This document shows positions 22,601-58,154 of a stretch of 64,000 bases of DNA, in pieces (positions within the stretch are counted from its first letter, which is position 1; each line of letters opens with the position of its first letter). The notes beneath the pieces were generated by a model. That model saw nothing but the letters and a program-made list of their open reading frames with translations. It did not search any database and was not told where the DNA came from. Source of the stretch: Rhynchopus sp. YZ270_cl-10 (taxonomy: Eukaryota); the NCBI GenBank assembly GCA_964035575.1, contig OZ037835.1, positions 1,860,001-1,924,000 of the forward strand, given 5' to 3'. A program made the position numbers and the translations under genes.

Positions 22601-23780
22601 TCTTCACCGCACCGTTGCACCAGCGTCGCTTCTTCTTCCTTGCCTTGCCTCTGGGGATGTGCCTCCTCGCGATGTTCTTCACCATCCCTGCCCACTTGGC
22701 TGCTGCGGTGCTGATCGAGCCCCACTTCATTGCGTCTGGCGAACTGCGCTCCATCTCCTTGGTGAAGCCTGCCCAGTTCGCCTTCTTCCAGTTCCACAGC
22801 TCTTTTTTGAGTTTCACCTCAGGATGTGTTGGAGGTGTTTGGGCGTTCGCTTGCACTTCAAACTCTATCGGCAGGTGGTCGGAGTTGAGCGTTTCCCGTG
22901 TTTGCCAATTGGGGTCGGCCCAGTCTCTGTCTGCGAAGACCACATCTGGTGACGTTTTGGTACCGCGCTGGATCCGCGTTGCTTCCTTCTTGTTCCAGCA
23001 TCGCATGTTGTTCCCCAACGCCCAGTCGTGTAGGTCAGTTCCCGTTTGGTTGGGAATTTTCGCCTGACTCCACGCCTGGTGATGTGCGTTGATGTCCCCT
23101 GCGATCACGCAGCCCTCTCCCGTTGGCAGATCCTGTGTTGCGAAGTCATCCTCTCTCTGGTCCCCCTTCTGTAGACCCACCCCGCTCGGCCGGTACACAT
23201 TCGTGAAGAGCACGCCCTCCACAATCACATCCAGCCTCTCTGTGGTCTCCCACGCTTCGAAGGGTTGTTCTGTCGCACGCAAGTTCTTCTTCACCAGTGT
23301 CGCAATCCCTCCCCCATGCGTCTCGCTGATGTCTTTTTTTCGAGCTACCGTTCGCACCCGCAGGAAAGTCCTGTACCCGTCAAAGTTCAGCTTGCCCGTT
23401 TGCGCCGCCATGAGTTCTTGGAGGTGTACTACATCGTACTTCTCCTTCTCCAGGACCTGCTTCAGCTCCCCTTTCTTCGGGCCCGTCAGCCCCCCCGCAT
23501 TCCAACTCATGCAGCGAAGGGTTCTTGGTTTTGGTCCTTGCTCTGGTTCTGGCTCTGGTCCTGGCTCAGGCTCGATGCCGTCCTCTAGCAGTTGGTTGCT
23601 CTTGATGGTGGAGGAGGTCTTGTCGAGTGTGGGGTCTGTGTTCGGTCGACCTGAGTGGTGTTGATGAGTCATCCTTGGGTGTGCGTGGGTCTTCCACTTG
23701 TACGGAAGCAAAAAAGGCAGTAGCAGCAGCAGCACACTATCCAGCATTAACCACACCAACAGCAACACCAGACACAACAG
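19686..23780 (-). CDS. Element A ORF2: APE endonuclease - reverse transcriptase - RNase H - C-terminal Cys/His knuckle (start undefined; in frame with ORF1)
   Basis: APE: SWNAGG, LQE, AGDINAHH, SDHLPI. RT: KSPGADG, YRPIALTS, QTGFR, LDLDKAYD, GVPQGTVLSP, FADD, YLGV. RNase H: YTDGS, AELVAI, TDSQSAL, PSHVGVSGNEEAD. Knuckle: CNNC...H...C. Confidence 0.95.
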   Translation of the reverse strand: MLCLVLLLVWLMLDSVLLLLLPFLLPYKWKTHAHPRMTHQHHSGRPNTDPTLDKTSSTIKSNQLLEDGIEPEPGPEPEPEQGPKPRTLRCMSWNAGGLTGPKKGELKQVLEKEKYDVVHLQELMAAQTGKLNFDGYRTFLRVRTVARKKDISETHGGGIATLVKKNLRATEQPFEAWETTERLDVIVEGVLFTNVYRPSGVGLQKGDQREDDFATQDLPTGEGCVIAGDINAHHQAWSQAKIPNQTGTDLHDWALGNNMRCWNKKEATRIQRGTKTSPDVVFADRDWADPNWQTRETLNSDHLPIEFEVQANAQTPPTHPEVKLKKELWNWKKANWAGFTKEMERSSPDAMKWGSISTAAAKWAGMVKNIARRHIPRGKARKKKRRWCNGAVKKAQKQRDRELRRQQKEETLTVADGDALTELRRQTANAIRKAKREVWEDKCTKAVATSGAFRLLRELDGRADKAQSYPIKVKKEGQQEKQQLSTNKEKADALGEHYCSVSDGTGLPDAEQQTTAGSQGAEAPLTLEELDAALNVLEAGKSPGADGIHNEMLMHLGPAAKKGLLHVMNLSWKQGQLPKEWKKAILFPIHKQGKPEEDLESYRPIALTSTVSKVMEHVLANRLLQLMEDPNEATQNLHPKQTGFRRFRSAVDNLAYITQLAKDSAAKKEVPIILTLDLDKAYDKVKRGKILERLHQHQVPERYIRWLTDYLKHRTARTTVEGTRSEEYVMREGVPQGTVLSPLLFNLVMTEVAEILEGTTAHFCIFADDLAIMCTERTLEEATAAIQKVLTLLEEHLPKLGFTISRRKTFVMPVTEKGDRADIRKAKCEVKYADGAVVNRAQTVRYLGVELDDALTMQPQLAAVKTKFLKKLSLIQLMAGRDWGCDAHMLRQVYMTYVLPTITYALAVWGPALNEAGLETLEVLHRRGARVITGCNYYTKAEDLLWEAHLRKIREHVEFDAAALYERARRQLETPAECAMHSSDTKLTWLRSAKDTVEQTKMYRHDQPAMSQTHYPVAPWRWKEVLPKVDIRPYVAGFKKGTQTDAEARSLTEQTTAELPPADLHVYTDGSVEGGRGHGGAGIVVYPGDSDKEIATANVGAGRMSISYTAELVAIREALPMVEELHRTDHKHNTVVILTDSQSALRALETGPVKATGLLCDVWSALHRATTKVRVIMQYIPSHVGVSGNEEADHEAKLGTATYQAERASQKGRLQEEPLTLLACKAAIRAVCSSYTPQPASELYSTITADTPKGVSRPKLSTPELTRRGAVQMRLLRTERHPALFDYMGSNDVARCNNCTAKSKATLKHMFKVCSATKALRTDLLPNKSLKFLLLEQPQLCLKYISAAKLTEASLPELVRSNTY

Positions 23781-25871
23781 TCAGTACCGCATGCTGCGGC
23801 GCTTCTCTTTCTCTTTCCTTGGCGAGGGGGAGGGCGTCGTCGCTAAGATCCGTCGTGTGTTCTTGGGGGTGGCACGGTCACGTTCGTCCCGCTCCGCTCT
23901 CTTCCCCCTGTTCAGCTGCTTGGGTGGCGTCAAGCCCATGCGGAGGCGGCGTTCTTCTGCGTGGAGGACGTCCCTCGCACGTTTCAGCTGGCGTTCCTCC
24001 TCCTGGCGCACCAGTGCTGCCGCTGTCGCGAGATCCATCTCCTCCTCTCGCTCTGTTTCCCGCTTTTTTTTTAAAAAAGCCTCGTAAGAGGCTTCGGCCT
24101 CTTGCAGCACTGCCTCCGTCGCCAGCCGTTTCGCTTCTGCTGAGGCGAATGCGTTCCTCCTCTTCTCCTCGGCCAACTCCTCCTGGCGTGTCTTCTTCAG
24201 GATTTCGTTATACTCCTGCCACTGTGCTTCTTCGCGTGCCTTCGCTTCTGCCCTCTCCGCCTCTGCAGTGTCGAATTCACGGCGGCGGTCCGTCTCTTCC
24301 TGCCGCCTCTGTGCCTGCAGCCGTTCTTCTGCTTCTTCTCTCTGTTCGCGTTGCTGTTGTTGTTGCCTCTGCTGTTGTTGCTGCCGCTGCTGCTGTTGCT
24401 GCCGCTGCTGCTGTTGTTGCCGCTGCTGCTGTTGTTGCTGCTGTTGCTTCCGCTCCTGCGTTTGCGTGGGTTCCTTCTTCGCCTTCGTCTCCTTCTTCGG
24501 CGGTGCCGTCACCTTCACCTCCTCATCGATTTGCATCTCGCCTTCTCCTTCTTCTTCTTCTTCTTCTTCTTCCGGTTCGGTGCGTCGCTGTTGTAGCTTT
24601 AGGTCGCGCATCTCCGTCATCAGCTGGTCCAGCTGGCTCGCCATGCGTTGCAGCGTCTGCTGCATCTCGTCCTTCTCTGCCCGCAGTGCACCTTCTCTCT
24701 CCTTCGACTCCAGGAGTTCCCGACGCATCTTCTCCACCTCGGCGTCCTGTGCGGGGTAGGGCTTGGGCACGTAGTCCTGCTGTGCCGCCCTTCCTTCCTC
24801 TTTTCCTTTTCCTTTTTTATTTGCGGCGTCAAACAGCCACCCTTCTTTGGTACGGTCGTACCGACGGAAGGTCAGCACGTCCTCCCCCACCACTACCGGC
24901 TTCAGCGTCCCCGGCGGTGCGCCCCGGACGAGAAGCACCCTGTGCGTGCCGTGCTTGCCGGTCCTCACCAACTCCGGCTCCCACGCGTGCTGCTCGCTCA
25001 GGATTGCCCGCACTCCGTTCTTCGACAGCGAGAGAGGCAGCCCGTCCACCACCCACATCTCTGCCCAGAGGTTCGTCTTCCCCTGCTCGCCCAACACCTT
25101 GCTGGCCTGCTCCTGTGTGGTGCCTTCCGGAACCGCGACGCCGAGTCCGCCCCGCGACAGCAGCACCACTCGCCCGCTCAGCTCGGTGGCCTGGTTCCGC
25201 GCCGTCTCCAGGTTCACTGTGCTCGGTAGCGGCGTCACCCGGTCGCCACCCCGTCCCGACCCGTTGGTGAAGAACGGCCTGGCGAAGAAGCCGTCATCGC
25301 CGCTTCCTGCCAGCACGTCCTTCACCTGCGCGCCGTCTACTCCAATCTTAAAAGCCGCCGTCTTTGCGGCTGGCTTCCCCTTCTTCGCCTTCAGCTCCAC
25401 GGCGGTCTGCACCTCGCCTCCGTGTGCCTTCACCCATGCACATGCTGCGGCACGGGTCACGCTGTTGCGGCTTTCCACCACAACGTATTTGGTTTGGGGC
25501 AATGCCCCCTGGTGCTGCTTTGCACCCGCCGTCTTGTGCACCGCCTGTACGGTGCTGACTGAGCACAGGAACCGGCGCTCCGTCCTCATCTCCTCCCCCC
25601 GCACCGTCACGAGGGAGATCAGTGGGGCCGCCAACCCCTGTGGTTTGTCGGCCGGGGCTACGAGTACCCCTGCCGTGTGCTGGTGCTGCGGCTTCTGCAG
25701 CGCTTCCTCCACTTCCTTACGGCTGCACCACAGGATGCCTCCGTTTTTCTTAAAATCAGCCAAGTTGGCTGCGAGTCGGCTGTCAGGAAAGTCCTCAGCC
25801 CGGGGTCTCCACATCGCCCCTGCCACCTCTTCGTCAGCCTTCTTCATCGTCTGCTGTCCAGAGGACCCCAT
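23781..25871 (-). CDS. Element A ORF1 (696 aa; globular N-half, coiled-coil/polyQ C-half)
   Basis: Long ORF directly upstream of ORF2 inside the TSD-bounded element; E/Q/R-rich C-terminal half. Confidence 0.85.
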   Translation of the reverse strand: MGSSGQQTMKKADEEVAGAMWRPRAEDFPDSRLAANLADFKKNGGILWCSRKEVEEALQKPQHQHTAGVLVAPADKPQGLAAPLISLVTVRGEEMRTERRFLCSVSTVQAVHKTAGAKQHQGALPQTKYVVVESRNSVTRAAACAWVKAHGGEVQTAVELKAKKGKPAAKTAAFKIGVDGAQVKDVLAGSGDDGFFARPFFTNGSGRGGDRVTPLPSTVNLETARNQATELSGRVVLLSRGGLGVAVPEGTTQEQASKVLGEQGKTNLWAEMWVVDGLPLSLSKNGVRAILSEQHAWEPELVRTGKHGTHRVLLVRGAPPGTLKPVVVGEDVLTFRRYDRTKEGWLFDAANKKGKGKEEGRAAQQDYVPKPYPAQDAEVEKMRRELLESKEREGALRAEKDEMQQTLQRMASQLDQLMTEMRDLKLQQRRTEPEEEEEEEEGEGEMQIDEEVKVTAPPKKETKAKKEPTQTQERKQQQQQQQQRQQQQQRQQQQQRQQQQQRQQQQQREQREEAEERLQAQRRQEETDRRREFDTAEAERAEAKAREEAQWQEYNEILKKTRQEELAEEKRRNAFASAEAKRLATEAVLQEAEASYEAFLKKKRETEREEEMDLATAAALVRQEEERQLKRARDVLHAEERRLRMGLTPPKQLNRGKRAERDERDRATPKNTRRILATTPSPSPRKEKEKRRSMRY

Positions 25872-26714
25872 CGTGGAGGGGGGTGGCTTTTTTGGGGGGA
25901 GGGGGGGAGCAGTTGGGATGTGCTCAGGGTTAATTCTTGATTCACTGTGTCCTCCTTATTCGTGGAATCGGATGTAAATAACAAAGTGTTTTTATGTGGG
26001 TGGTGTCAATCATGACGTCAATTCGCGTACACAAAAGTGTGCAGTGGCCAGAAGACAAGCTTGAATATATTATTTTCATCATGTTCTTAGGTGGCGGCTC
26101 TCCGATTCAGGCACCCCTACCGTAATAGGCACACCTTCACCGTGCCCGTCCCCAGGCCAAAGCCGAACGGGGTCCGCCATAGGGTCTTGAGAGCGCCGAC
26201 TTTGGGTACGTTAATCCCTTACCATACCTACTCATCGACGGAGCTGTGCGTTATGGGTAAGGAGTGCTCTTAGAGCCCACCTCGGGGTCGCTCATGTATC
26301 CCCCCCAAAGGTATTGTCCCACGGGCGGTCGCAGGGCTCTAGTTCATCCCCCCATACGTCCCCGGCACAAGGCCTTCGCGCGGTCAAAGGAATCCCATCA
26401 TACCCCCCCTACCTACTAGGAACATACCTCCACGACTGGATGCAGTTTTAGGTCATACCCAGGACCTGGGGGGGGTGTTTTTGTTTCATAAAAAGCTCCA
26501 ACAATTTTGTAGAATCTGCCAAAGGGAGTGGGGTTTCGTGTGTTTAGCATTTGAGTCGATGACAGACACCCCAGACTGTTTTTCCGCTTTCAGGTCGCAA
26601 CAGTGCAGGGAAGTGTCCCAAAACGATTTTCTGGGGGGTTTTGCGTGTAAATAGGGTCAGCACACTGGTGGGTCCGTGCTGTTTTTTCCACAGAACCGAC
26701 ATGTGGGACATGTC

Positions 26715-31958: not shown

Positions 31959-32866
31959 AGCAGCTCCGCTGTGACAGCTGCTTCACTCAGCTGCACAACT
32001 CACTGAGGTGTGCCTTCGAATATCGCCGCCCCTTTGGTCCCCATCTCGACGGCAGCGGCCTCACCCACGCATTCTCTTTCAGGATGCACGACAAAATAGA
32101 TTGACGATGCTTTTGCTGTGGGGTGGATGCGTACAACTAACAAACTCACCCCCTGTTTCGTTCCCCGTTTTCCTGTGTGGGTGAAGATAGCTATTGACAC
32201 CGTAGTACTTGCCGTTGTGAGAGGGGTGGGGTGGAGAGGTGGGGTGGGGGCAAAAGGCATGTTTTTGTTTCATAAAAAGCTCCAACAATTTTGTAGAATC
32301 TGCCAAAGGGAGTGGGGTTTCGTGTGTTTAGCATTTGAGTCGATGACAGACACCCCAGACTGTTTTCCCGCTTTCAGGTCACAAAAGTGCCGGGAGGTGC
32401 CCACAATAACCCCCAAGACGACTTTCTGCGGGTTTTTGCGGGTGAAAAGGTGCAGCACACAAGTGGTCCTGTGCTGTGTTTTTTCACAGAAACGAAATGT
32501 GTGGCGTGTCCACGCAACGACATGTTTTCCATCAAAAGGCCCCCCTACCTCCACCTGTTTTCATACCCCTATCACCCTTCCCCTCGTTGTTCACCCACCA
32601 CAGCTCCAACTCCCACAACCCCACCACACAACAGAGCAACACAAAAGGAAGACAAAATGGAAGTAGTTATCAAAGACTGTGCAGACAACTCGTATGCGAT
32701 CGAGGTGGGTGTGGATGACACAACGGAGACGATGCGGCAGAAGGTGGCGTCTGCAGTGGGGTTGGCTGAGGACAGCTTCCACATGGGCTTCGGAGGGAAG
32801 GAGGAAGGAGACGACATCACGCAGCTGAGTGCTGGAGACGCAATCATTCTGACGAAAGCTAAGAAG

Positions 32867-32950
32867 GAGGGTGAGAGACGACGCGCCTCCACGGGGTACC
32901 CTCGGGAGACGCCCCCCTCCTCTATGGGGGGAGGCGTCTGCTAAAGCGCG
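32867..32950 (+). ncRNA. Candidate HDV-like self-cleaving ribozyme at the 5' terminus of element B
   Basis: P1 GAGGGU(G)/(U)ACCCUC, P3 GCC/GGU, L3 UCCACGG, P1.1 GG, 14-position P4 (32907-32939, one mismatch), J4/2 GCUAA, short P2 CGC/GCG. Begins at the first base after the TSD. Confidence 0.6.
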
Positions 32951-32987
32951 GGGAAGAAGGACGGCGGCGGGGGGCAGCCTCGACGCG

Positions 32988-35900
32988 ATGTGCGGAGGGG
33001 CAGGTGGCCAAGGGGGGGAAAAGGGGGTGCTGCAGAAATACCTGAGGGGCTTCGACATGCGGGTAAAGGACGCAGGGGGGAACGGAGACTGCCAATTTAA
33101 GGCGGTCTCGATGGCTGTGCACGGAGACGCCACGGCGCACGGGGGGCTGAGGGAGATGGCGGTGGGGGTGTTGGAACGGGAAGCGGAGAATTGGGGTGAG
33201 CACGTTGACGGAGGACCGTCCGCCTACCGGAGGTACTGCTCGGCGATGGCGAAGCAGGGGTCCTGGGGGGACCACCTGACCCTGAAGGCGTTGGCGGAGG
33301 TGCTGATGCGGGAGGTGTATGCCTTCTCGGTGAAGGATGGGGAGGTGCGTGTGCTGAAGGTGCACCCGAAGGAGAAGGGCAGCGGTGCAGCGGTGACGGT
33401 GGCGTACGTGGACGCATGCCACTACCTGTGCGTCCTCCCCACGAGCACGGGGGAAGAAGCCGCCGAAGACCGGGCCCGCAAGGCGATGGTGGGGGGTGCG
33501 TTGGAGGTGACGGAGAAGCCGTACACCGTGCCGCAACCGCGAAACGATGCGAAGGCGGGGACGGAGGGGGGCTTCACCCAGGGGGGAGGGAAAAAGAAGA
33601 CGACGGCAGCGCTGACATTGCTGCAATCGGAGTGGGTGGGATCGACGCTTGTGCCGTGGGGGGAGGTGGTGGATAAGTCGGAGGGGGTCTGTCTTGTGCC
33701 GCAGGGTAGAGAGGTAGAGGCAGAGGGGAAGATCGCGCGCACGCCGGGCGTGACGTGGGTGGGTTTCGGGTCCTTCCCGAAGTCTGGTGGGGAGAAGATG
33801 CAGTGCCCCATGGGTAAGCAGGGGAATGGGGGGAAGGTGAACGGGGCGGCGAGCACGGCCGTGTACGTGGTGGGGAGGCTGAGGCCGGGGAGAGGAAACG
33901 GGGGGAAGAAGGCGTCGGCGGCCGTCCAACTGGTGACGGTGTTTGTGACGATGAGGCCGACAGCAGGACAAGCGCAGGACCTGGTGTCAGCGGGGAAGAA
34001 GATGCGTGCGGAGGTGGGGTGCAACCTCAACCGCCCACCATTGTGGCAGGAGGGTAAGCTGATCTCCTCGGTGGCCGACGTAAGGGAGGACGTAGCAGAG
34101 CGCTGCCTGAAGCAGAGTGGGAAGGGGGGTGTCTTCTTCCGGATGAGACGCGAGCAGTCGGAGCATCTGCCTGTCGTGTGGTTGGTGGACGGGGTGGGGC
34201 TAGAAGAGGCCCAGGGGCTGGCGACCCGGATGGGGGGATGGGGAGTGGCGGCGAGGTACGAGTCCCTGGGGATACGGGTGAAGAAGGAGGATCAGGAGCG
34301 TGCAAATGCGGCACTCATGCAGGAGGGAAAGGCGCCCGAAGGTCGATACGTGGTGTCCGGTTTCCCGTCGGGTACGTCCGGTGAAGCGGTGATGGAGTCG
34401 CTGGCAGGCGCAGGGTGGACGGTGACGCCGCTGCGGAGGCTGGAGGGATGGCGTTGGGTGGTGGGAGCGAAGCTGGATCCGCCGACGTGGGCCATGGACA
34501 TGGAGGGGAACGGGAAGGGGCTGCTGATCCGCAAGGATGGGCATAAGGAGGGCGGGGGTAGGGCAACGGCTCCGGGTCCGGGGGCGAAACAGAAGGCCAA
34601 GGTACATACCGCACATGCGTCTGGTCCGACATTTGGTGCCCGGACGGCGCCGGCGGCGACAGCGCAGCACAACCGTGGCACTGGGCCCGACTACGGTTGG
34701 GTGTCCTGGGCTGCGCACGCACGCCAAGCAGCAACAGCGCCAGCTGCAGCGAAGCCACCCACTACCACATCAAGGACACCTCCACCAACAACAACAACAA
34801 CAACGAAGCAACGGACGCCGAAGGGTCAACCCCCAATGACGTCGCCCGCCCCATCACCTGAGGACGCAGGCGAGAAGTGGGCGGAGTTGGAGCGCCGGAT
34901 GGAGGAGAGGTTGGACCGCCTGGTGGGCGAGCGCCTCCAGACCCTGCTGCAGGAGACGGTGGCGTCGCTGACGGCCCAGTTGCGGGAAGAACGGGTGGAG
35001 CAACGGAAGGAGCAGCAGGTGTGGATGGCGGCCATGCTGGAGCAAGTGGGCAAGCTCTGTTCCATGCCGAAGGAGGCCACGGCTGCTGCGAGAGAGGACG
35101 CCGCTGCTGCTGCTGCAGCCCTGAGGCAGGAGGAGGAGGAGGCGAAGGCCGCCGCCGCTGCAGCCCTGAGGCAGCGTGAGGAGGAGGCGAAGGCCGCTGC
35201 TGCTGCAGTCCTCAAGCAGCGTGAGGAGGAGGTGAAGGCCGCTGCTGCTGCAGCCCTGAGGCAGGAGGAGGAGGAGGCGAAGGCCGCCGCCGCTGCAGCC
35301 CTGAGGCAGCGTGAGGAGGAGGCGAAGGCCGCTGCTGCTGCAGTCCTCAAGCAGCGTGAGGAAGAGGTGAAGGCCGCCGCTGCTGCAGCCCTGAGGCAGC
35401 GTGAGGAGGAGGCGAAGGCCGCCGCTGCTGCAGCCCTCAAGCAGCGCGAGGAGGAGGTGAAGGCCGCTGCTGCTGCAGCCCTGAGGCAGCGTGAGGAGGA
35501 GGTGAAGGCCGCCGCTGCTGCAGTCCTCAAGCAGCGTGAGGAGGAGGTGAAGGCCGCTGCTGCTGCAGCCCTGAGGCAGGAGGAGGAGGTCGCCGCTGCC
35601 GCAGCCCTCAAGCAGCGCGAGGAGGAGGTGAAGGCCGCTGCTGCTGCAGCCCTGAGGCAGGAGGAGGAGGTCGCCGCTGCCGCAGCCCTCAAGCAGCGCG
35701 AGGAGGAGGTGAAGGCCGCTGCTGCTGCAGCCCTGAGGCAGCGTGAGGAGGAGGCGAAGGCCGCCGCTGCTGCAGCCCTCAAGCAGCGCGAGGAGGAGGT
35801 GAAGGCCGCTGCTGCTGCAGCCCTGAGGCAGCGTGAGGAGGAGGAGAAGGCCGCCGCTGCTGCAGTCCTCAAGCAGCGTGAGGAAGCCGACGCTGCTGCT

Positions 35901-36968
35901 GCAATCCTCTGGCAGCAGGAGGAGGAAGCCGCCGCCGCCGCTGCTGCAGTTGCTGCTGAGAACGCCAGGCAGCGCGAGGGGGAGGCTGCTGCTACTACGG
36001 CCCCGACTGTCGCAGTGCCCACTGCAGCGCCCACAACACCCGAGATGCAGATGGCGGATGAATTGTTGGACACACTCCCAGACGGGAATGCCGAGGACGT
36101 GATGTCACCGGAGCCCGCAACGATGGCAGGTAAGCGGATACGTGCGGGAAATGGGTCCAGTGAGGTTGAGGAGCTGAGCCCGCGCCGCAGGAGAAGGAGG
36201 GCTGACACCATCCGTGGAAAGCCGGGGGTAGTCGTAGAAGTCGCCGAAGCACGGAACCGGTCGCGGTCAGCACCGCCCAGGGACACATCGCCGACTGCGG
36301 ACGTTGCTGGCGCCGGTGATGTGGAGGTAGTGGTGGCGTCCCCGAAGAAGAAGAAGAAACGCAGGAACATTGTGGCCGCTGAGAAACGACGGGAGGCACT
36401 ACGGGCAGCACAGGAAGAAGCGGCGGCAAAGAAGGAGAGACGTGCTGCAGCAGTGCAGGCACAACGTGAGCAGGAGCAAGGGGAGAACGCCGGCGCAGGG
36501 ACCCCCGCACCCACGACACCAGACGCCGAGGCACGGATGGACGACGCCGACATGGCACTGCCGGTGCAGACATCGCCAGACTGTGCGGCTGTCGAGGAGG
36601 ACGCGGAGTCCTCGCCAGCTCCCAGAGTGCCGGTGGCGCCACCTGCCGTGACCCTGGCGGGCAAGCGGGAAGACCGCAGTGAGTCCGGTGAGACGGTGGC
36701 GCTGCTGAGTCCGCCGCGCAGGATGCGGACGGAAGTCCCCGCAAAAGAGCAGGCGGAGGGGAACGAGAAGAACGAGGAGTCGTACGGGAACGCAGTGCTG
36801 GAGGCTGGCGACTCCATGGAGTACTGCGAGGAGGGAGGCAACGGCGCAGCCATCCCGGTGACTGTCGTGAAGGTAGCGGGGGACGTCATCGAGATCGCGT
36901 TTCGTCCCGTCCAGGGACTAGACAACAGGTTGGTAGGCCGCAACACCCTGCGCGATGTGGGGCGGTGA
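32988..36968 (+). CDS. Element B ORF1 (1326 aa from first ATG): OTU-like cysteine protease, conserved core, 15-aa Ala/Glu repeats
   Basis: OTU motifs GNGDCQFKAVS, SWGDHLTLKALA and AYVDACHY. About 18 copies of LRQREEEAKAAAAAA. Confidence 0.85.
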   Translation: MCGGAGGQGGEKGVLQKYLRGFDMRVKDAGGNGDCQFKAVSMAVHGDATAHGGLREMAVGVLEREAENWGEHVDGGPSAYRRYCSAMAKQGSWGDHLTLKALAEVLMREVYAFSVKDGEVRVLKVHPKEKGSGAAVTVAYVDACHYLCVLPTSTGEEAAEDRARKAMVGGALEVTEKPYTVPQPRNDAKAGTEGGFTQGGGKKKTTAALTLLQSEWVGSTLVPWGEVVDKSEGVCLVPQGREVEAEGKIARTPGVTWVGFGSFPKSGGEKMQCPMGKQGNGGKVNGAASTAVYVVGRLRPGRGNGGKKASAAVQLVTVFVTMRPTAGQAQDLVSAGKKMRAEVGCNLNRPPLWQEGKLISSVADVREDVAERCLKQSGKGGVFFRMRREQSEHLPVVWLVDGVGLEEAQGLATRMGGWGVAARYESLGIRVKKEDQERANAALMQEGKAPEGRYVVSGFPSGTSGEAVMESLAGAGWTVTPLRRLEGWRWVVGAKLDPPTWAMDMEGNGKGLLIRKDGHKEGGGRATAPGPGAKQKAKVHTAHASGPTFGARTAPAATAQHNRGTGPDYGWVSWAAHARQAATAPAAAKPPTTTSRTPPPTTTTTTKQRTPKGQPPMTSPAPSPEDAGEKWAELERRMEERLDRLVGERLQTLLQETVASLTAQLREERVEQRKEQQVWMAAMLEQVGKLCSMPKEATAAAREDAAAAAAALRQEEEEAKAAAAAALRQREEEAKAAAAAVLKQREEEVKAAAAAALRQEEEEAKAAAAAALRQREEEAKAAAAAVLKQREEEVKAAAAAALRQREEEAKAAAAAALKQREEEVKAAAAAALRQREEEVKAAAAAVLKQREEEVKAAAAAALRQEEEVAAAAALKQREEEVKAAAAAALRQEEEVAAAAALKQREEEVKAAAAAALRQREEEAKAAAAAALKQREEEVKAAAAAALRQREEEEKAAAAAVLKQREEADAAAAILWQQEEEAAAAAAAVAAENARQREGEAAATTAPTVAVPTAAPTTPEMQMADELLDTLPDGNAEDVMSPEPATMAGKRIRAGNGSSEVEELSPRRRRRRADTIRGKPGVVVEVAEARNRSRSAPPRDTSPTADVAGAGDVEVVVASPKKKKKRRNIVAAEKRREALRAAQEEAAAKKERRAAAVQAQREQEQGENAGAGTPAPTTPDAEARMDDADMALPVQTSPDCAAVEEDAESSPAPRVPVAPPAVTLAGKREDRSESGETVALLSPPRRMRTEVPAKEQAEGNEKNEESYGNAVLEAGDSMEYCEEGGNGAAIPVTVVKVAGDVIEIAFRPVQGLDNRLVGRNTLRDVGR
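35100..35890 (+). repeat. 45-bp coding tandem repeat (about 18 units, some 39 bp)
   Basis: Variants of ctgaggcagcgtgaggaggaggcgaaggccgccgctgctgcagcc. Confidence 0.9.
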
Positions 36969-39900
36969 CGGTGTGGTGCGGTGGAAGGGTACGGCACAGG
37001 ATTGGCTTCTTCGTGCGTAGTTGGAGAACGAGACGTTTTTGTGAAAACTGTCTCCCCAACAAGGGGTCAGCATCGTTTGCGCTCTGCGGGCTGTATGCTG
37101 TCGGGGACAAGGGGTAAGGGTAGAACGCGAAGGGGGGTGGGGCGAGGGGTCGGACACAGGGTGCGTCGAGGGAGGCGACGAGGGGCGTTTTTGGGCAGGG
37201 GGTCACTGCTGACATGTGGAGACGTGGAGGAGCATCCGGGTCCGTCGACCATGTCGCTTGGCACGGCAAACGTGACGTCTCTGAGGGCACACCCTGCGGT
37301 GGGGGAGTGGGATGTGGACGTTTGTGCTCTGCAGGAGGTGCGCCTCACAGAAGAAGAGATGAAGGGGGCAGCAAACGACGTGAAGGGGTATGGTGCCAAG
37401 CAGCTTCTCTTTGGTGCCCCTTGCAGACGAAGCCAGGGATCAGACCCTCTGCGCACGCGCACGCAGAATGGTGGAGTTGCGATCATGACGTGCGCTGACA
37501 TACCGACCAGAGCAGTACCGCCACAATGTGCCCAACAAGCGTGGAACGAATGCCGCTTTACGCATGCGCAGGTGGCATATGGGAGCGGGGGACGTAACAT
37601 CTCTGTGTTCTCGTTTTATGGTGTGTGTGCTGACAGCGACCGCACGGAGCAACTCCTGACAGGCATCTTTGAAGAAGCAGCCAGCCTTGGGGACATACCG
37701 GTGTTCATTGCCGGAGACTTCAACGTAGAGGCTAACGAAAGTCTAGCCATTCGAGCGGCCATCTCCTCCGGCAAATGGGTTGATGCGGCAGATACCTACG
37801 CACAGCAGTTGGGTAAGGCAGCAGAGAACACATGCTATACCTCCACATCGTCTGGCAGACGTATCGACTTGGTGCTGGCGAACCACGTGGCTGCCCCTGC
37901 GATCTCCAAAGTGGTGGTCTGGAAAGAGAGCTGCCTCCCGGTACACAGACCGGTGGTGTTGACGTTAGACCTGACGCGATACGAGCAGAAGGCACCGCAG
38001 GCACGCCCTCCCCTTTCTTTGATCGGCGACGACTGGACGAAATGGCCGGCGAAGAAGGAGAAGGAGCTTGCAGCGAAGGTGATGCAGGAGAACGCTGCCC
38101 CTGAAGCCGACCTGACGAAGATGTCGGTTGAAGATCGCTGGGCACGCTTCTGCAAGATTGCGGAGGACTACCTGCTGAAGAGAGGTGCTGCAGACTCAGA
38201 CCCGAAGCAACAACGCCACAGGGGGAGAGGGGAGGTGCAACCCGACGTTCTCCGACATCGGACGGCCCGCATGGACTGCGACACGCCGGATGCTGTGAAC
38301 CTGGAGACGGCTCAACTGCAGAAGACATGTCGTCAGATGGAGCAGCTCATTGGTGATCGGAGGAAGCGCTTCGGTCAGCCATCTGCAGAATCGTTGAACG
38401 AACGGCAGCTGTGGGCGAAAATCCGCAAGAAGAAGCATCTACTGAAGAGTGACACCTGGGACCTCGACCTTCCTGGGATAGAGGCGTTGTGTGGGCTCCT
38501 TGGCTGCTTGAAGAAGAGGGGTTTTGTCCTGCTGGAGCAACGGCGTCGGGCCCGCATCAAGGAATGGCGCCGCACAATGAAGGAACACATGAAGGTGAAC
38601 CCAGCGAAGGTGTTCTCGTTCCTGCGGAAGGCTACGTCGTCACACACCACGTTCCTGAAACGGGAGGACGGCACGGTTACAGCTAACCTCCAGGAGATGG
38701 ATGAACTGCTCATGGATGACCGTGCTTGGGGTGGGGTGTTCCGGATGTACGACGATTCCGAAGAACCTGCGTGGACGACGTTCTTTGATAGGTTCAAGGA
38801 ACACATTCCTGAAGGGACCCCTTGTGTATGCGAACCCCTGACCGCCGACGACCTCCGTACGACCATCGGCAAGATGAAGCGGAAAAAGGCGGCAGGCCTC
38901 GATGGGTGGAGGGTGGAGGAGCTGAAGGAACTGCCTTTGACACTGCTGGAGGAACTCGCGCGCTGCCTGAACCTGATCGAGGATACTGGGAACTGGCCCA
39001 GGGTGATTGCGAGGGCGTTGGTGGTGCTCATCCCCAAAGGAGAAGGCGAGGAGCCCCTGAAGCAGCGACCCATTACCATCACCAGTGTGATGTACAGGTT
39101 ATGGGCGGCGACTCGACTCCGCAAAGTGGCGACGTGGCAGGAATCCTGGATTCACGAGCGGCAACACGGCTTCCGGAACAAACACGGAACCGAAGACCTG
39201 CTGTGGTTTCTCTGTGCGAAGATGGAGGAGGCTCTGATAGACGACACACCTATCTATCTAGCCTCCTTCGACTATCAGAAGTGCTTTGACCGTGTTCCCC
39301 AAGAGATCATGTTCCAGCTCGTCGAACGGTTGGGTCTTCCCGACAACATGATGCGCCCCATCCGGGGTATATACAAGAAGCTGGGGAGGCGTTTCAAACT
39401 TCCGGCAGGTCTTGGCAAAGAATGGTTTGCGACGAATGGTATCCTCCAAGGATGCCCACTGAGCGTAATCTTCCTGAATGCGCTGGTGGCGGTGTGGATG
39501 AACGGGGTGGAGAAGGAAACGGGCACGCAGGGGCTGGCGTATGCTGACGACACCAACCTCCTGACGAAGACCCTCGACCAGCTGCGAGCGGGTGTCGCCT
39601 TCACCGGACACTTTGCAGACTTGACGGGACAACGCGTCCACGCGGGGAAGAGCACGTGGCAGAGCAACCGTCCTGATGAAGAGGAAACTGTGCAGATGAA
39701 CGGCGCGGATCTTACTCGCGTCGAGAAGTCGGAGTGCCTGGGGGCGACGGTGCAGGCCCGACAGGCTGGGACGCCCACGCTCCCGACGAAGCTGGAAGAC
39801 ACCATCGACGCATGCGGACCGCTAGCAGGTAAGGTGGGATGCCTCCCGCTGACTCAAGGTGAGAAAGCAGGCATCATGCAGGCTGCAGTGATGTCGAAAT

Positions 39901-41975
39901 CTGTGTACGGTATCACGGTGCAGGACCCACCTGGGAAATACGTGAACAGTCTTGCAACTGCAGTGGAGAAAGGGGTCCACGGCGTGAACAAGATGAACCG
40001 AAGAAGCGTACCGGTCATGCTGAATGTCTTCGAGAAAGGCCATCTGCTCGACCCCTCGGTGGCATTCGACTACAGAAGGATCATGACGTGGGCGGCGATG
40101 ATACGCAAATCGGATGAGATCTGTTTGCTGGTCGAAAAGTGCAGGTCACGTGCGAAAGCGAAGCAGGCGAAGACTGGAGGACCCATCGGGTTGATTGCGC
40201 GAGCCCTCAGCCGCCTTGCGTGGTCATGGATAGACACGACAAAAGTGAAAACGCACGATGGGAGCATCGTTGATGTGAAGACGGTAAGCTTGGGTAGACT
40301 GGGCCACGTTGTGCGAGAACGGATGTTCTTCATTCGACTCTCCCGTACGAAGACGACTGCGAAGGCCAATGGCAAAGGCAGAGCTAACCTGAAGGGTATT
40401 GAAGCGGGGGTGGATAAGGAGAAAACCCTTGCTCTCACCCGAAGCAAAACTTTGACGGATTACGAGGCGGGGACGCTGCGACACATTGTAGCTGACGGTG
40501 CGATAACGGGGGTGCGACTTGCGAGAGCGCGCATACGGGACTCGGCCATCTGCGTGCACTGCGAAGCGGGGGTGGACGAAAATCACAAACACTTGTGGTG
40601 GGAATGTGAAGCATGGAGTAGCATTCGTGCGGAGTACCCCTTGCTGTTGGACATTGACAGAACGACCTGGCCAAACTGTCTCGCTATCTGCGGCATGTGC
40701 ACACCGGACACACCTTTGGAATGCGCCCGTGTTGCAGACCTGCAGAAGATGATGGTGCGCATCCTCATCGCACGCTCCAAGTGGAGCAGACCGGAAGCGG
40801 CGAACCCGCGACTGCAAGAAGACCGATACCCGTGGACGTGGGCGCCGGAGTTGGACACGACGACGCAACACGCGAACAGTTTGGTGGACTACACCCCCCT
40901 GAAAAGGAGGTGGCCGTATGGACGTGCGCTGCTGCTGGCGTTTGCCTCCTGGCTGGGTGGTTTACAATGGAGCGACGAAGCTGGACGTGAAGTCTCCCAC
41001 ATGGAGCTGCTCATCGACTTCGAGGTTGCCACAGGGATGGACATCCGACCTGGGGACAAGACCGGCAGAATAGCGCCGAAGCTGAAGCAGCCGAGGGATG
41101 GGACTGGGGAAGAAGACAACAATGGGGAGGAAGACGACGGGAGTGGGGAAGACGACAATGATGACGACGTGGTGCCAGTAGCGCTGGCCCACAGAGAAAT
41201 GGCGAAGACGACCACCTTTGGGCATATGTTGGCTTCACTCAGAACCTTTTCGGAGAGCTCTCTCCATCCGGGGAAGGTGAAGATAACGCATGTTCTCGCT
41301 TCGTTTGGGGCGAACGCCATCACAGGCATCGACCGCCGTCCTATCTTTGCCGGCGGAGAAGAAACGTTGAAGGCATTGCGTGCGCTATACGATGCTGGTG
41401 TGGCGTACCGGCTGCAACGCAGCTCCGAAGGCATGTCTGAGGTGGAGCTCCGTGGTGGCGATAGAGCGAGAGGTACATGGATGGGGGAGTATTCTGCTGA
41501 GACGGCGTACCCCTCCACAGAAGTTAGGGGCAGGAGGGCACTACCATTCATCCAGCGGGCTGAACAGGAGACATCTGCGCATGCTCGCTACCGGCACCAT
41601 GAGCACGTGCGTCCAGGGGACGCACCCGTGAAGGCACCTGAAGGAGCGGTTCCGATCTTCCAGTTTGCGATATGTGTGCTGCACCGGAAGACGAAGTGTG
41701 ATGCCTGCTCGAAGAACGCCCAGGCAGACCTGATGCATTGCTGCTTTGCGCACCACTCCAACGACGACGGGTTACCGATCCGACACGAAGCGTGCACTAA
41801 GCATAGACTCTCGAGGTGCGGGAACTGTGTGCAAGAGAAGAGTACGCTGGATCACTGCTGCCGCCGCCACCACGACACCTCGAAGGGGCGACAGACGACG
41901 CTGGGAGGCTTCTTCAGGAAGAAGCAGACGAAGCAGAAGGATGGGCACAGCAGGGGCGGTGATGGACTTATGTAA
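36969..41975 (+). CDS. Element B ORF2: 2A-like peptide - APE - RT - Cys/His knuckle - C-terminal tandem Cys/His motif (start undefined; in frame with ORF1)
   Basis: 2A-like: LLTCGDVEEHPGP. APE: TANVTS, ALQE, AGDFN, RIDLVL, HRPV. RT: KAAGLDGW, RPITI, QHGFR, FDYQKCFD, GILQGCPLS, YADD. Knuckle: CVHC...HLWWEC. No RNase H motifs seen. Confidence 0.95.
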   Translation, partial: RCGAVEGYGTGLASSCVVGERDVFVKTVSPTRGQHRLRSAGCMLSGTRGKGRTRRGVGRGVGHRVRRGRRRGAFLGRGSLLTCGDVEEHPGPSTMSLGTANVTSLRAHPAVGEWDVDVCALQEVRLTEEEMKGAANDVKGYGAKQLLFGAPCRRSQGSDPLRTRTQNGGVAIMTCADIPTRAVPPQCAQQAWNECRFTHAQVAYGSGGRNISVFSFYGVCADSDRTEQLLTGIFEEAASLGDIPVFIAGDFNVEANESLAIRAAISSGKWVDAADTYAQQLGKAAENTCYTSTSSGRRIDLVLANHVAAPAISKVVVWKESCLPVHRPVVLTLDLTRYEQKAPQARPPLSLIGDDWTKWPAKKEKELAAKVMQENAAPEADLTKMSVEDRWARFCKIAEDYLLKRGAADSDPKQQRHRGRGEVQPDVLRHRTARMDCDTPDAVNLETAQLQKTCRQMEQLIGDRRKRFGQPSAESLNERQLWAKIRKKKHLLKSDTWDLDLPGIEALCGLLGCLKKRGFVLLEQRRRARIKEWRRTMKEHMKVNPAKVFSFLRKATSSHTTFLKREDGTVTANLQEMDELLMDDRAWGGVFRMYDDSEEPAWTTFFDRFKEHIPEGTPCVCEPLTADDLRTTIGKMKRKKAAGLDGWRVEELKELPLTLLEELARCLNLIEDTGNWPRVIARALVVLIPKGEGEEPLKQRPITITSVMYRLWAATRLRKVATWQESWIHERQHGFRNKHGTEDLLWFLCAKMEEALIDDTPIYLASFDYQKCFDRVPQEIMFQLVERLGLPDNMMRPIRGIYKKLGRRFKLPAGLGKEWFATNGILQGCPLSVIFLNALVAVWMNGVEKETGTQGLAYADDTNLLTKTLDQLRAGVAFTGHFADLTGQRVHAGKSTWQSNRPDEEETVQMNGADLTRVEKSECLGATVQARQAGTPTLPTKLEDTIDACGPLAGKVGCLPLTQGEKAGIMQAAVMSKSVYGITVQDPPGKYVNSLATAVEKGVHGVNKMNRRSVPVMLNVFEKGHLLDPSVAFDYRRIMTWAAMIRKSDEICLLVEKCRSRAKAKQAKTGGPIGLIARALSRLAWSWIDTTKVKTHDGSIVDVKTVSLGRLGHVVRERMFFIRLSRTKTTAKANGKGRANLKGIEAGVDKEKTLALTRSKTLTDYEAGTLRHIVADGAITGVRLARARIRDSAICVHCEAGVDENHKHLWWECEAWSSIRAEYPLLLDIDRTTWPNCLAICGMCTPDTPLECARVADLQKMMVRILIARSKWSRPEAANPRLQEDRYPWTWAPELDTTTQHANSLVDYTPLKRRWPYGRALLLAFASWLGGLQWSDEAGREVSHMELLIDFEVATGMDIRPGDKTGRIAPKLKQPRDGTGEEDNNGEEDDGSGEDDNDDDVVPVALAHREMAKTTTFGHMLASLRTFSESSLHPGKVKITHVLASFGANAITGIDRRPIFAGGEETLKALRALYDAGVAYRLQRSSEGMSEVELRGGDRARGTWMGEYSAETAYPSTEVRGRRALPFIQRAEQETSAHARYRHHEHVRPGDAPVKAPEGAVPIFQFAICVLHRKTKCDACSKNAQADLMHCCFAHHSNDDGLPIRHEACTKHRLSRCGNCVQEKSTLDHCCRRHHDTSKGRQTTLGGFFRKKQTKQKDGHSRGGDGLM

Positions 41976-43485
41976 CATCATCTCCACGATGTATTGTATC
42001 ACCTATCTCGGATAGGGGTGCATGCATCGAAAACGGGCCCCCACCTCTGACGAAAGCTAAGAAGTTCGAGGCCAGAGCAGCACTTCATGCGTTGGGTGAG
42101 GACATCACTGCAGAGAGGCTAAAGACTGTGAGGGATGCTGAGGTTGCGTGTTTGCTTCTGCAGGCGGAGGTTGCGACTGTCATTCCGAATCAGTTCTTGG
42201 CACAGACATCGTTAACAGCACTTGATCTGAGTGCTGTGTCCTGTGTGACGGAAATTGGTGATAAGTTTCTTCACCAGTGCACATCGTTGACGAGCATCGA
42301 CCTGTCTGGGTTGACACGTCTCACGCGGATTGGTACCCAGTTTCTTTCCGGCTGCAAGAGCCTCACAGCAGTAGGCTTATCATCATTTCGCAATGTTACA
42401 CACATTGCCGGATGCTTTCTTGCCCACTGCTGCAGCCTCACAGCAGTGGACTTATCACCACTCAGCAATGTTACACAAATTGATGGCTACTTTCTTGACT
42501 ACTGCAGGAGCCTCAAAGCAGCGGACTTATCGCCACTTCGCAATGTTGCATACATTGGTCGCTTCTTTCTTTACAACTGCAACAGCCTCACAGCAGTGGA
42601 CTTGTCAGCGCTCAGCAATGTTACACACATTGATGGCAACTTTCTTGCCTGCTGCAGCAGGCTCACAGAACTAGACCTGTCGCCACTCAGCAGAGTTGCG
42701 CACTTTGGTAAGGACCCTGCTTACGGCTGCACTTCATTGAGGAGCATCCACCTTGGCGGCTGCAGCAGTGCTGTGTCCAGTCGAGTATGTGTAGGCAATC
42801 TGAAGAAGTATGTGGTTGACACACTTACACCTCCACCTCCACCTCCGACACGTGGCAGAGACAAGACGAAAGCAGCCGTTCCTTGCTGTAGTGTTTCGTA
42901 AAGAGCGACAGGAGAAGCTGGGCAAGGAACGTAGAGCAGCTCCGCTGTGACGGCTGTACCCTCATCAAAAGTTCTAAACAAAGTGTGACATGGAGGGGGA
43001 AGCGTTCAACATATCAATCTCAACCACCATTCCGATTCTCGCGATTGTTGCCCTTTTTTCTGAATCTACAACACACACAGCGCATGCACGTTCAGATTAG
43101 TTCATAAGGGTTTGGAATACAATGACGCCGCACTCCTAGGTTTCCTTCTTATGTTTATGATTACATGCAATGCTAAAAGGAAATAGAACACCGTACCCCT
43201 ACTCCCATCCTTCTTCCATATTTTTTAATCCGGGGCGGGTTGGAGTAGAGCCACATTTCACCGGCAGGTAGAGGTGTGTGCGTTTCACCACCCGCAACTT
43301 TGCTTTGTCTAAAAGCTTTCACTGCTCTCCTTCCAAGCTTGCTCTGATACAACTTCAAAGTGTACGGCTACCTACAAAGGAAGCGGCTTTGGTGAGGTGT
43401 TGTTTTCCTTTCACCATGTTCACCCACCACAGCCCCAACTCCCACAACCCCACCACACAACAGAGCAACACAAAAGGAAGACAAA

Positions 43486-48345: not shown

Positions 48346-49341
48346 CAGCTGCTTCACTCAGCTGCGCAACTCGCTCAGGTGGGCCTTCGAATATCGCCGC
48401 CCCTGTGGTCCCCATCTCGACGGCAGCGGCCTCACCCACGCATTCTCTTTCAGGATGCACGACAAAATGGATTGACGATACTTTTGCTGTGGGGTGGATG
48501 CGTACAACTAACAAACTCAACCCCTGTTTGGTTTTCCGTTTTCCTGTGTGGGTGAAGATAGCTATTGACACCGTAGTATTTACCGTTGTGCGAGGGGTGG
48601 AGAGGTGGGGTGGGGGCAAAAGGCTGGTTTTTGTTTCATAAAAAGCTCCAACAATTTTGTAGAATCTGCCAAAGGGAGTGGGGTTTCGTGTGTTTAGCAT
48701 TTGAGTCGATGACAGACACCCCAGACTGTTTTCCCGCTTTCAGGTCGCAACAGTGCAGGGAAGTGTCCCAAAACGATTTTCTGGGGGGTTTTACGGGTGA
48801 ATAGGGTCAGCACACAGGTGGGTCCGTGCTGTTTTTTCCACAGAACCGACATGTGGGCCATGTCCCACCTTCTACACAAATGATTTTATTGAACGCATCC
48901 TTTTTTTTCTAATTATTTATTTGAAACGCAGAGTTTGACAATTTTCCTGATGAAGATGTAATGTATGTGCGAGAGATGGGGAGCACGGGAGGGAAAAAAC
49001 GACTCGTGGATACTGAAAAATTTCACTAGAAATGCACGCATGTCTTATAAAAATAATAAAACCTACATTCTTGAGCTCTTCTAAACGACGTGATTTTCAT
49101 TGGACGCATCCCTCTAGCCCCCCTCTGTAAGTGTTGATTGAATTGGAGTCGGGGAGCACAAGCAAAGGGCAATGAAAGGAAAACAATGAGTAAAAGAACA
49201 AGATAGAAGAGACAGTATTTATGTCTGAGTTTCACACGCAATTCCAATCATTCGAACCGAAGCCGCCCAAACATTTCGGTCTGTATTATTTCCTAACAAC
49301 CGTACGCGTACCGCCTCGTGTGTTGTGTACAAAAAACAAAT

Positions 49342-50234
49342 CAGTCCTATTCGTGGTCATTTACCCCCCCCCCCCTAAATTTACCCCCCCCCCCCCTTAT
49401 TTTACCCCCTTTTTCAGAAAAAAACGGTTCAGGCCAAAATAACATGGTAATTTACCCCCCCCCCTTATAATACCCTGTTGTGGCTGGTAATTTTTGGGTA
49501 ATTATCGCCGCAACACGCCAGGTGGTGTTTTGTCACGAGTGACCTAAACCCACGAGCGAAGCGAGGGGGTTCAGGGAACGAGTGGCAAAACACCACCTGG
49601 CGTGTAATTATGGGGTAATAGTTTCACTTAGTGCAGCGCATACCTGTTTTGTTTTATGGTTTGCTGGGAGGGGCTGATGTGTTCAGCGGGTCGTACATCC
49701 GGAGACTGTAGGACTCGTCTGATTTGAAGCTGGAGACAAGCTCGAAATGAGGAAAGGGGTAAAGTGCAAATAATCTTTCACCCTGTTTTACATCACGTGT
49801 GCAGGTAGATGGGTGCAGGTGGGTACGTTTGTGCTGCGTGGGCGATACGTTTGGGACACCTCACGGAATCTGAGGCAACACCGTGATCCCTGACCAGTCA
49901 TGGTTCAGGCACGGGCAGAAAGATGATGTGGATGATGTGGATCCATGATGCATGACTGCTTGCGATGTCGCAAGGAAGTGAGGAATTTTTTTCAGATGAC
50001 ACATTTGTCATGAGAGCATGTGTCGTCACACTGTGTTGTGCAAAATTTTACCCCACCGTGTATGAAAAAGTCCCCCCTTCCCACCCAAAAACATGACCTA
50101 ACCCATAACATGGTAATTTACCCCCCCCCCTTACCCCCTCATTTACCCCCCCCCCTTATTTTACCCCCTTATTTCCAAAATTTCCGGTTCACCGACCCAA
50201 AGGGGGGGGGGGTAAATGACCACGAATAGGACTG
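49342..50234. mobile_element. Non-autonomous TIR element, ~33-bp TIR CAGTCCTATTCGTGGTCATTTAC(n), apparent 2-bp AT TSD
   Basis: Matching TIRs at both ends. The paralogous empty site acaaatgaataaaaaatg at 26841 shows that AT is duplicated. Confidence 0.85.
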
Positions 50235-50495
50235 ATGAATAAAAAATGTTAAAATCAAAAAGGAAGAACATAACAATGTGGTTTTCAACAGGGATAAGCT
50301 CCAAGTACCTACAAAGTGGCATCCACCCATTTCTAAAATGTGGTGCATGAGAGAGAAATGTGCAGAGCTTTGTGTGCGAATGCAAAGGAAAACATGGTGC
50401 TTTGTGAACAGCTCTCAGCGGCCCTGTTCCAACAATGTAACAAAATGCCTAAAAAAGTACAAAACAAAATCCCGTTGTTATTTTTCTTTCACCAT

Positions 50496-57810: not shown

Positions 57811-58154
57811 AAGACTGCTTTATTTGAGTATCATTGTTGGGTTCTTTTGTACTAAATATTGAGGACAGTGGGCAAGTCTGCGTTCCCAATATTGATGGGA
57901 AAAAGCCCAACATTAGTTTCCGATTTCGGGTGCGTTATGGTTTCACTATTGTTTCACTTTTTATTATTATTGCACCTGCTTACAGTATTCCCTCCAAGGT
58001 TGCAAACACTCTGGGGGTTCGATAACCCGCGGAGTGTCAGATGCCTGCGTCCCAGAGGCGTTTTGCGCTATCAACTTCACTTTTATTCTTCACTTTTTTT
58101 TGAAAAGCCTAAAATGTTGAAACAGATTCGTATTCATTTTGCGATAAACGAAAA

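What the first reader, a model, noticed from the sequence alone, without database searches (positions are those of the whole stretch)
32848..42064. Intact, recent retrotransposon B combining ribozyme, OTU, readthrough, 2A and a tail-less structured 3' end
Seen: a perfect 19-bp TSD, two unbroken ORFs, and insertion right at the end of the UBL-coding segment of an otherwise intact LRR gene. Most parts have separate precedents in non-LTR elements, but I do not recognise this combination. It is the best candidate in the window for an undescribed system and may be active.
Basis: partly seen in the sequence, partly recalled or inferred. Interest (0 to 1): 0.85.

Follow-up and report, generated by a model that had tools for sequence, protein, structure and literature searches.

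The report
Retrotransposon targeting one protein-coding gene family
An intact, recently spread jumping gene whose copies turn up again and again at the same codon of a large family of ubiquitin-like host genes, so it likely aims at that spot and rides on the host genes' transcription, much as R2 elements do in ribosomal DNA.

Summary
The element is real: 9,179 bp (32867-42045), exact 19-bp duplication, two open frames, OTU, APE and RT domains, an HDV-like fold starting on its first base, and a 3' hairpin with no poly(A). The parts are less new than claimed. Ribozyme plus 2A is known from L1Tc. OTU recurs in relatives and was reported in a Symbiodinium LINE. This copy's 2A carries the weakening N-to-H change, and UGA readthrough is about even odds. 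Ten stored proteins join ten different UBL paralogues to this family or its sister subfamily at one register, nine residues after the AGD motif, all in sense orientation; four are independent 5'-truncated copies. Six of 8 full-length ORF1 records are such fusions. Three readable flanks are not UBL, so specificity may be incomplete. Best reading: a sequence-specific APE-type LINE of a probably diplonemid host that parasitises a protein-coding multigene family in R2 fashion. Looser precedents are ingi in RHS genes and Tetrahymena REP. Placement among reference clades could not be tested, and no RNA data were available.

The parts
32657..32866 (+). 5' part of host gene: UBL-like segment (70 codons)
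   Evidence: 8 uninterrupted paralogues in window
32848..32866 (+). left copy of 19-bp target-site duplication
32867..42045 (+). non-LTR retrotransposon B, full length
   Evidence: between TSD copies
32867..32948 (+). HDV-like ribozyme fold; predicted cut before 32867, predicted catalytic C 32941; P2 only 3 bp
32988..36968 (+). ORF1 (1326 aa from first ATG; the frame is open through the ribozyme)
33078..33422 (+). OTU-like cysteine protease domain; Cys and His motifs kept in both subfamilies
35106..35884 (+). 45-bp tandem repeat coding for an Ala/Glu-rich, probably coiled-coil stretch; length varies between copies
36966..36968 (+). in-frame UGA between ORF1 and ORF2 (candidate readthrough codon)
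36969..37190 (+). ORF2 leader; residues 5-61 are 55/57 identical between subfamilies; first ATG at 37095
37191..37244 (+). 2A-like peptide, N-to-H variant; sister subfamily canonical
37296..37922 (+). APE endonuclease domain
39030..39680 (+). reverse transcriptase domain
40551..40607 (+). CCHC-type motif after RT
   Evidence: read from sequence; weak Pfam zf-RVT hits in relatives only
41976..42045 (+). 3' UTR without poly(A); stem-loop about 41987-42029, shared with other repeats of the host
42046..42064 (+). right copy of TSD
42065..42901 (+). 3' part of host gene: BspA-type LRRs

Best explanation
This is a full-length APE-type non-LTR retrotransposon whose family is found repeatedly at one codon position at the end of the ubiquitin-like segment of a large host gene family, likely because its endonuclease recognises that DNA sequence. 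Likely cycle: it lands in sense orientation and is co-transcribed with the host gene array (inferred). The HDV-like ribozyme would cut the RNA free at the element's first base (fold shown, cleavage predicted). ORF1 would be translated as OTU plus RNA-packaging protein. ORF2 would be made at low level by UGA readthrough or by a restart at ATG 37095, and the 2A peptide would free APE-RT from its leader (inferred). ORF2p would bind the 3' stem-loop, nick a fresh UBL paralogue and reverse-transcribe there, leaving 16-19-bp duplications and frequent 5' truncations (products shown, mechanism from established TPRT knowledge).
For: Of 42 stored proteins of the two subfamilies, 15 have foreign N-terminal letters. 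Ten of these are UBL paralogues joined nine residues after the AGD motif, as in the window. The ten UBL tails are all different, 57-97% identical to the window's UBL. Four are 5'-truncated at four different ORF2 positions, two per subfamily, so they are independent insertions, not array duplications. Six of 8 subfamily-1 ORF1 records that reach the OTU are UBL fusions; the other 2 start at the internal ATG and cannot be read. Control: a related OTU-bearing family on contigs of matching lengths shows 0 UBL fusions among 15 of 17 members listed (2 readable flanks), and a UBL profile hit only those 10 of 330 stored proteins. Read contigs show the 3' end running into other UBL paralogues at the same spot (loose ends behind 42047 and a 1-base-shifted junction in X1 and X3). 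The single ribozyme hit starts on base 1. Recency: ORF2 records mostly 97-100% identical; long contig pieces differ by 0-3 letters in 416-1295; summed depth rises from 5' to 3', as 5' truncation predicts (not a copy number).
Against: Three readable flanks are not in-frame UBL: P0123 and P0133 (subfamily 2) and P0125 (subfamily 1; shifted-frame UBL test 2 of 60 shuffles as high, junction 7 residues off). None of 4 subfamily-2 ORF1 records is a UBL fusion. Detection through gene calls favours in-frame insertions into genes: 27 of 42 proteins start inside the element, and 19 of 34 members of the main cluster were never listed, so the targeted fraction is unknown. Contigs sharing the 3' tail but with other upstream sequence have non-UBL flanks. 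The host family looks very large, which raises the chance of hits in it, though not at one codon. P2 of the ribozyme is 3 bp. No significant structure follows the UGA (z -0.1 to -1.8). Polycistronic co-transcription rests on the host being a euglenozoan, which I infer from Diplonema relatives.
Confidence: 0.75

Rival explanations
1. Hot spot, not strict target: the APE has a loose sequence preference, as for L1Tc/ingi. The UBL end matches it well and is present in very many copies, while many insertions lie elsewhere.
For: Three non-UBL readable flanks, two ending in similar residues (LAVTEK, LSSTK); 0 of 4 subfamily-2 full-length records in UBL; RHS precedent in trypanosomes.
Against: At least 6 of 8 full-length subfamily-1 copies are at the UBL site; all junctions within about 1 nt across paralogues as little as 57% alike.
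Confidence: 0.2
2. One old insertion was multiplied by duplication or gene conversion of the host array, giving the look of targeting.
For: The host genes are tandem and repetitive.
Against: Four different truncation points, two subfamilies 77% identical in ORF2, ten different UBL flanks around near-identical elements, and an exact TSD.
Confidence: 0.03
3. On ORF2 expression only: there is no readthrough. ORF2 is made by reinitiation, internal entry or trans-splicing to ATG 37095, and the 2A trims the short leader as in L1Tc.
For: ATG at 37095 before the 2A. Relatives L003 and L008 have ORF2 in the -1 frame. 2A normally sits at the ORF2 N-terminus without readthrough. TGA-C also ends 2 of 15 host frames. 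No stable hairpin after the stop.
Against: Relatives L001, L005 and L006 and the unrelated element A all have an in-frame TGA with the upstream frame open (32 of 32, 244, 79 of 79 and 724 codons). The 38 readable leader codons before the first ATG are almost invariant between subfamilies while the ORF1 C-terminal region is about 25% identical; this fits an RNA signal of either kind.
Confidence: 0.5

Closest known systems
L1Tc / ingi (Ingi clade, trypanosomes) and their RHS hot spot
   Same: Euglenozoan APE-type LINE with 5' HDV-like ribozyme thought to free it from polycistronic transcripts, 2A before APE including an N-to-H variant, and a fixed insertion site inside a protein-coding multigene family (PMC3185411, PMC3708506, PMC7563717; passages).
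   Different: L1Tc has one ORF, RNase H and poly(A), and its distribution is described as essentially random with some site preference. B has a long OTU-bearing ORF1, no RNase H, no poly(A), and most readable copies at one site. B's RT is only 25% identical to the window's APE-RT-RNase H element A.
R2 (28S rDNA) and other targeted elements (R1, Tx1/Keno, Utopia, CRE/SLACS)
   Same: Fixed site in a multicopy transcribed gene; for R2, release from the co-transcript by an HDV-like ribozyme.
   Different: Targets listed in PMC4640811 (passages) include RNA genes, transposons, microsatellites and telomeres, and targeted APE families are said to lie in Tx1 and R1. B's target is protein-coding, and it uses APE rather than RLE.
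Tetrahymena REP (Tt.REP)
   Same: Protist LINE strongly associated with an expanded LRR gene family (76% colocalise; PMC6564038 passages).
   Different: REP is tied to LRR introns and removed from the somatic genome; no fixed coding-sequence site appeared in the passages read. B interrupts the reading frame at one codon.
Diplonema papillatum and environmental LINEs of the same RT lineage; Symbiodinium OTU-2A ORF2p
   Same: 42% identity over APE-RT to D. papillatum KAJ9444445 with a near-identical 2A. 440 representatives at E<=1e-30. OTU in 6 of 144 relatives. OTU plus 2A reported in PMC13405545 (passage).
   Different: In those relatives the OTU is on the same protein as APE-RT, not in a separate ORF1. 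No UBL fusions were seen. The D. papillatum paper leaves its elements unclassified.

Membership tests
APE-type non-LTR retrotransposon | APE endonuclease before RT in ORF2 | tested here: met
   Pfam and motifs
APE-type non-LTR retrotransposon | TSD and 5'-truncated copies (TPRT products) | tested here: met
Ingi clade (L1Tc) | 5' HDV-like ribozyme and 2A before APE | tested here: met
Ingi clade (L1Tc) | single ORF without ORF1, RNase H, poly(A) | tested here: not met
   1326-aa ORF1, no RNase H hit, no tail
Ingi, R1, Tx1, L1, RTE or any named clade | RT groups with reference members | not testable with these tools
   No classified reference sequences could be stored; trees hold only unnamed or auto-named relatives and element A; PDB L1 and R2 score alike (E 1e-14 vs 6e-14)
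R2 clade | RLE endonuclease, single ORF, 28S target | tested here: not met
   APE present, two ORFs, protein-coding target; a simple PD-(D/E)xK pattern absent after residue 1200 (weak test)
Target-specific non-LTR elements | independent copies at one site of a multicopy sequence | tested here: met
   10 of 13 readable flanks of 28 residues or more, plus the window copy
Target-specific non-LTR elements | most copies in the genome at that site | tested here: inconclusive
   6 of 8 full-length subfamily-1 records, 0 of 4 subfamily-2; no genome held
HDV-like ribozyme | P1, P3, L3 core, P1.1, P4, J4/2 cytosine, with G1 at the RNA 5' end | tested here: met
   core codons invariant in subfamily 2, changes fall in J1/2 and P4 (inferred from protein)
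HDV-like ribozyme | stable P2 helix | tested here: inconclusive
   3 bp only; a stricter descriptor found nothing
HDV-like ribozyme | self-cleavage | not testable with these tools
   needs in vitro assay
Class A 2A peptide | D(V/I)ExNPGP | tested here: not met
   H for N in this copy; subfamily 2 is canonical and matches 17 of 18 residues of T2A as read from the oligonucleotide in PMC3084703
Programmed UGA readthrough | in-frame UGA-C with conserved 3' signal | tested here: inconclusive
   3 of 5 informative relatives in frame, 2 of 5 not; leader conserved, no significant fold
OTU deubiquitinase | Pfam OTU above cut-off with catalytic Cys and His | tested here: met
   activity and substrate not testable

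The most novel reading that the evidence does not exclude
The element does not only aim at the UBL genes, it borrows them. Its usual junction puts the host start codon and UBL in frame with ORF1 straight through the ribozyme (6 of 8 full-length records). Uncut, host-capped mRNA would then make a UBL-OTU-ORF1 fusion that the element's own OTU may process, while ribozyme-cut RNA serves as the template. It would be a LINE of an unclassified RT lineage that evolved target specificity for a protein-coding gene and takes its translation start from its target.
Probability: 0.15. Interest if true: 0.88.

Novelty: new variant of a known kind. Interest (0 to 1): 0.64.

Why it matters
Strictly targeted retrotransposons are described mainly for RNA genes and simple repeats, and APE-type ones mainly in two clades. 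A recently active family that hits one codon of a protein-coding family would be a further origin of APE sequence specificity, with ten natural target variants to define the recognition rule. That is useful for site-specific gene insertion tools. It also gives a testable case of how LINEs live in polycistronic genomes (ribozyme release, no poly(A)) and of how ORF2 is translated, which is an open question. Each insertion knocks out one member of a fast-evolving UBL-LRR family.

Tried and rejected
Own genome: none held. Rfam: 2 chance hits, no HDV family. Strict HDV descriptor (P2 of 5 bp or more): no hit. No HDV descriptor hit or shared tail in 10 metagenome loci, most of which lack the element's ends. 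Sequencing runs: no RNA holder listed, so expression is untested. A second laying on 41900-42072 could not count junctions, since summed depth fell to 190-665 beyond 42049; the 5' end was never laid. ESM Atlas: RT part gave generic RVT_1 clusters, ORF1 middle gave no usable hit. AlphaFold of ORF1 middle: pLDDT 42.5, not used, no fold search. ORF1 middle vs element A ORF1: not significant (E 0.81); vs D. papillatum P0006 E 2e-6 pairwise. Shifted-frame UBL test: negative for P0133 (49 of 60 shuffles as high) and P0123 (8 of 60), ambiguous for P0125. L008 first looked like a fused ORF1-ORF2 but is a -1 overlap. The global alignment of the ORF1 C-terminus (0/82) is an end-gap artefact; I use the BLAST value. 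No TSD found for element A. Earlier findings of the scan: nothing. Literature searches with no description of this family or of a UBL-gene-targeting LINE. Repbase and subscription journals are not covered, and the original RHS paper was not held. PMC6338049, PMC3326317, PMC6431247, PMC12278014 and bioRxiv 10.64898/2026.09.24.754024 (passages only) added little; supplements of the two 2A preprints were not seen and may list this peptide.

Full report
Observation. The ends share an exact 19-mer (32848-32866, 42046-42064). Between them lie two long frames in one phase, split by a single TGA at 36966. ORF1 has an OTU domain; ORF2 has APE and RT but no RNase H. Taking out the element restores an unbroken 348-codon UBL-LRR gene like its 8 neighbours. 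An HDV descriptor finds one site in 128 kb of window strands, on the element's first base, and none in 1.2 Mb of controls; its P2 is only 3 bp and Rfam does not see it. The 3' UTR is 70 nt, ends without poly(A) and folds a hairpin (z -2.8). No genome is held. The host is probably a diplonemid-like euglenozoan; this is inference from the nearest named relatives in Diplonema papillatum and D. japonicum.

Family and age. Protein searches returned near-identical copies on megabase contigs: a 34-member ORF2 cluster (15 listed, mostly 97-100% identical) and a sister subfamily 77% identical in ORF2 and 54% in the first 560 residues of ORF1. Read contigs of 4 runs cover 36000-42400 in all 30 bins. Long pieces differ by 0-3 letters in X1 and X2, and summed depth rises towards the 3' end as 5' truncation predicts; the tool warns that this is no copy number. 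No RNA holder was listed, so activity is inferred from intactness and low divergence only.

The target. I examined 42 stored proteins of the two subfamilies. Of these, 27 start inside the element and say nothing about flanks, and 2 have 5 or fewer foreign residues. Of the 13 with 28 or more, 10 begin with a UBL paralogue joined to the element nine residues after the AGD motif, the same point as in the window. The ten UBL tails all differ and are 57-97% identical to the window's. Six are full-length subfamily-1 copies, 6 of the 8 ORF1 records that reach the OTU; from their frame the junction lies one base earlier than in the window (inferred). Four are 5'-truncated at four different positions, two in each subfamily, which rules out simple array duplication. 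All are in sense orientation. At DNA level, contigs in X1 and X3 carry the 3' end into other UBL paralogues at the same spot. A related OTU-bearing family on contigs of matching lengths has no UBL fusion among 15 of 17 members listed, though only 2 flanks were readable. Against strictness: P0123 and P0133 (subfamily 2) are not UBL, P0125 is ambiguous, none of 4 subfamily-2 ORF1 records is a fusion, gene calls favour in-frame hits in genes, and 19 cluster members were not seen. The targeted fraction is therefore unknown.

The other parts. The 3' hairpin (about 41986-42045) is shared with further repeats that have other upstream sequence and other flanks; summed depth jumps from about 4,000 to 18,000-45,000 in X1. 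This suggests a conserved RT-recognition tail used by related families or SINEs (inference). The sister subfamily's 2A matches 17 of 18 residues of T2A as read from the oligonucleotide printed in PMC3084703 (passages). This copy has H for N, a change reported in 20% of L1Tc copies and said to lower activity (PMC3708506, abstract and passages). OTU is a recurring module of the lineage: 6 of 144 representatives carry one ahead of APE (four pass Pfam's cut-off), and PMC13405545 reports an OTU on a 2A-bearing Symbiodinium ORF2p (passage). For readthrough, 3 of 5 informative metagenome relatives and the unrelated element A have an in-frame TGA, but 2 of 5 have a -1 overlap; an ATG lies at 37095, and no significant structure follows the stop. 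Leader residues 5-61 are 55/57 identical between subfamilies against 198/243 in APE, which points to a cis signal without saying which kind. I put readthrough at about even odds.

Mechanism. Shown: the anatomy, the repeated site, TSD and truncations. Predicted from fold: self-cleavage at base 1. Inferred: co-transcription with the host array, sequence-specific nicking by APE, ORF2 made at low level and trimmed by 2A, priming helped by the 3' stem-loop. The OTU may protect element proteins or stalled ribosome products from ubiquitin-dependent removal; this is speculation, and PMC13405545 raises a similar idea. The boldest reading is that the common junction lends ORF1 the host's start codon and UBL. 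Against it, the window copy is out of frame, ORF1 has its own ATG, the UBL end has no GG, and in-frame cases are the ones gene callers reveal.

Comparison. It works like R2 (fixed site in a multicopy transcribed gene, ribozyme release) but is not R2. It shares ribozyme and 2A with L1Tc (PMC3185411, passages) but fails the single-ORF, RNase H and poly(A) features. Insertion into a protein-coding family has looser precedents: ingi/RIME in RHS genes (PMC7563717, passages) and Tt.REP beside LRR repeats (PMC6564038, passages). PMC4640811 (passages) places targeted APE elements in Tx1 and R1. My trees (18 and 37 rows) group B with its sister, D. papillatum P0004 and environmental P0003 (support 91/96 and 96; P0143 also joins in the larger tree) within a wide lineage of 440 representatives at E<=1e-30, far from element A. 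They hold no classified references, so clade membership is open. Ten library searches found no account of this family; Repbase was not searchable. The D. papillatum genome paper (passages and a supplement search) leaves its LINEs unclassified.

Verdict. A real, probably active element. The list of parts is mostly precedented; the recurrent single-codon target in a protein-coding family is the finding of value. New variant of a known kind, interest 0.64.

Noticed in passing
window 19686-25955 (-): Second intact LINE (element A; APE-RT-RNase H, A-rich tail), RT 25% identical to B. It also has ORF1 and ORF2 in one frame split by TGA-C, with a 2A-like variant before APE. No TSD found.
   Followed up: partly
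window 41986-42045: The 3' hairpin tail is shared by further repeats with different upstream sequence and flanks, possibly other LINE families or SINEs of the host.
   Followed up: partly
window 16718-51885: Nine tandem, same-strand, intronless UBL-BspA-LRR genes; only one is occupied. Ankyrin-repeat genes form another array at 773-9685.
   Followed up: partly
P0145 cluster: Another young LINE family, probably of the same host: single 1991-aa ORF with OTU-APE-RT-RNase H-like domains, 17 members over 95% identical among those listed.
   Followed up: partly
P0004 (D. papillatum): The ORF2 leader is made of about 30-residue repeats ahead of a T2A-like peptide; many identical 1965-aa copies.
   Followed up: no
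window 61326-62500: 31-bp tandem satellite with about 36 overlapping copies listed.
   Followed up: no
window 53659-58871 and 49340-50236: Nested inverted repeats around a 674-codon FAD-oxidoreductase frame (55786-57810), and a perfect 35-bp inverted pair 827 bp apart; possible DNA transposon or MITE.
   Followed up: no
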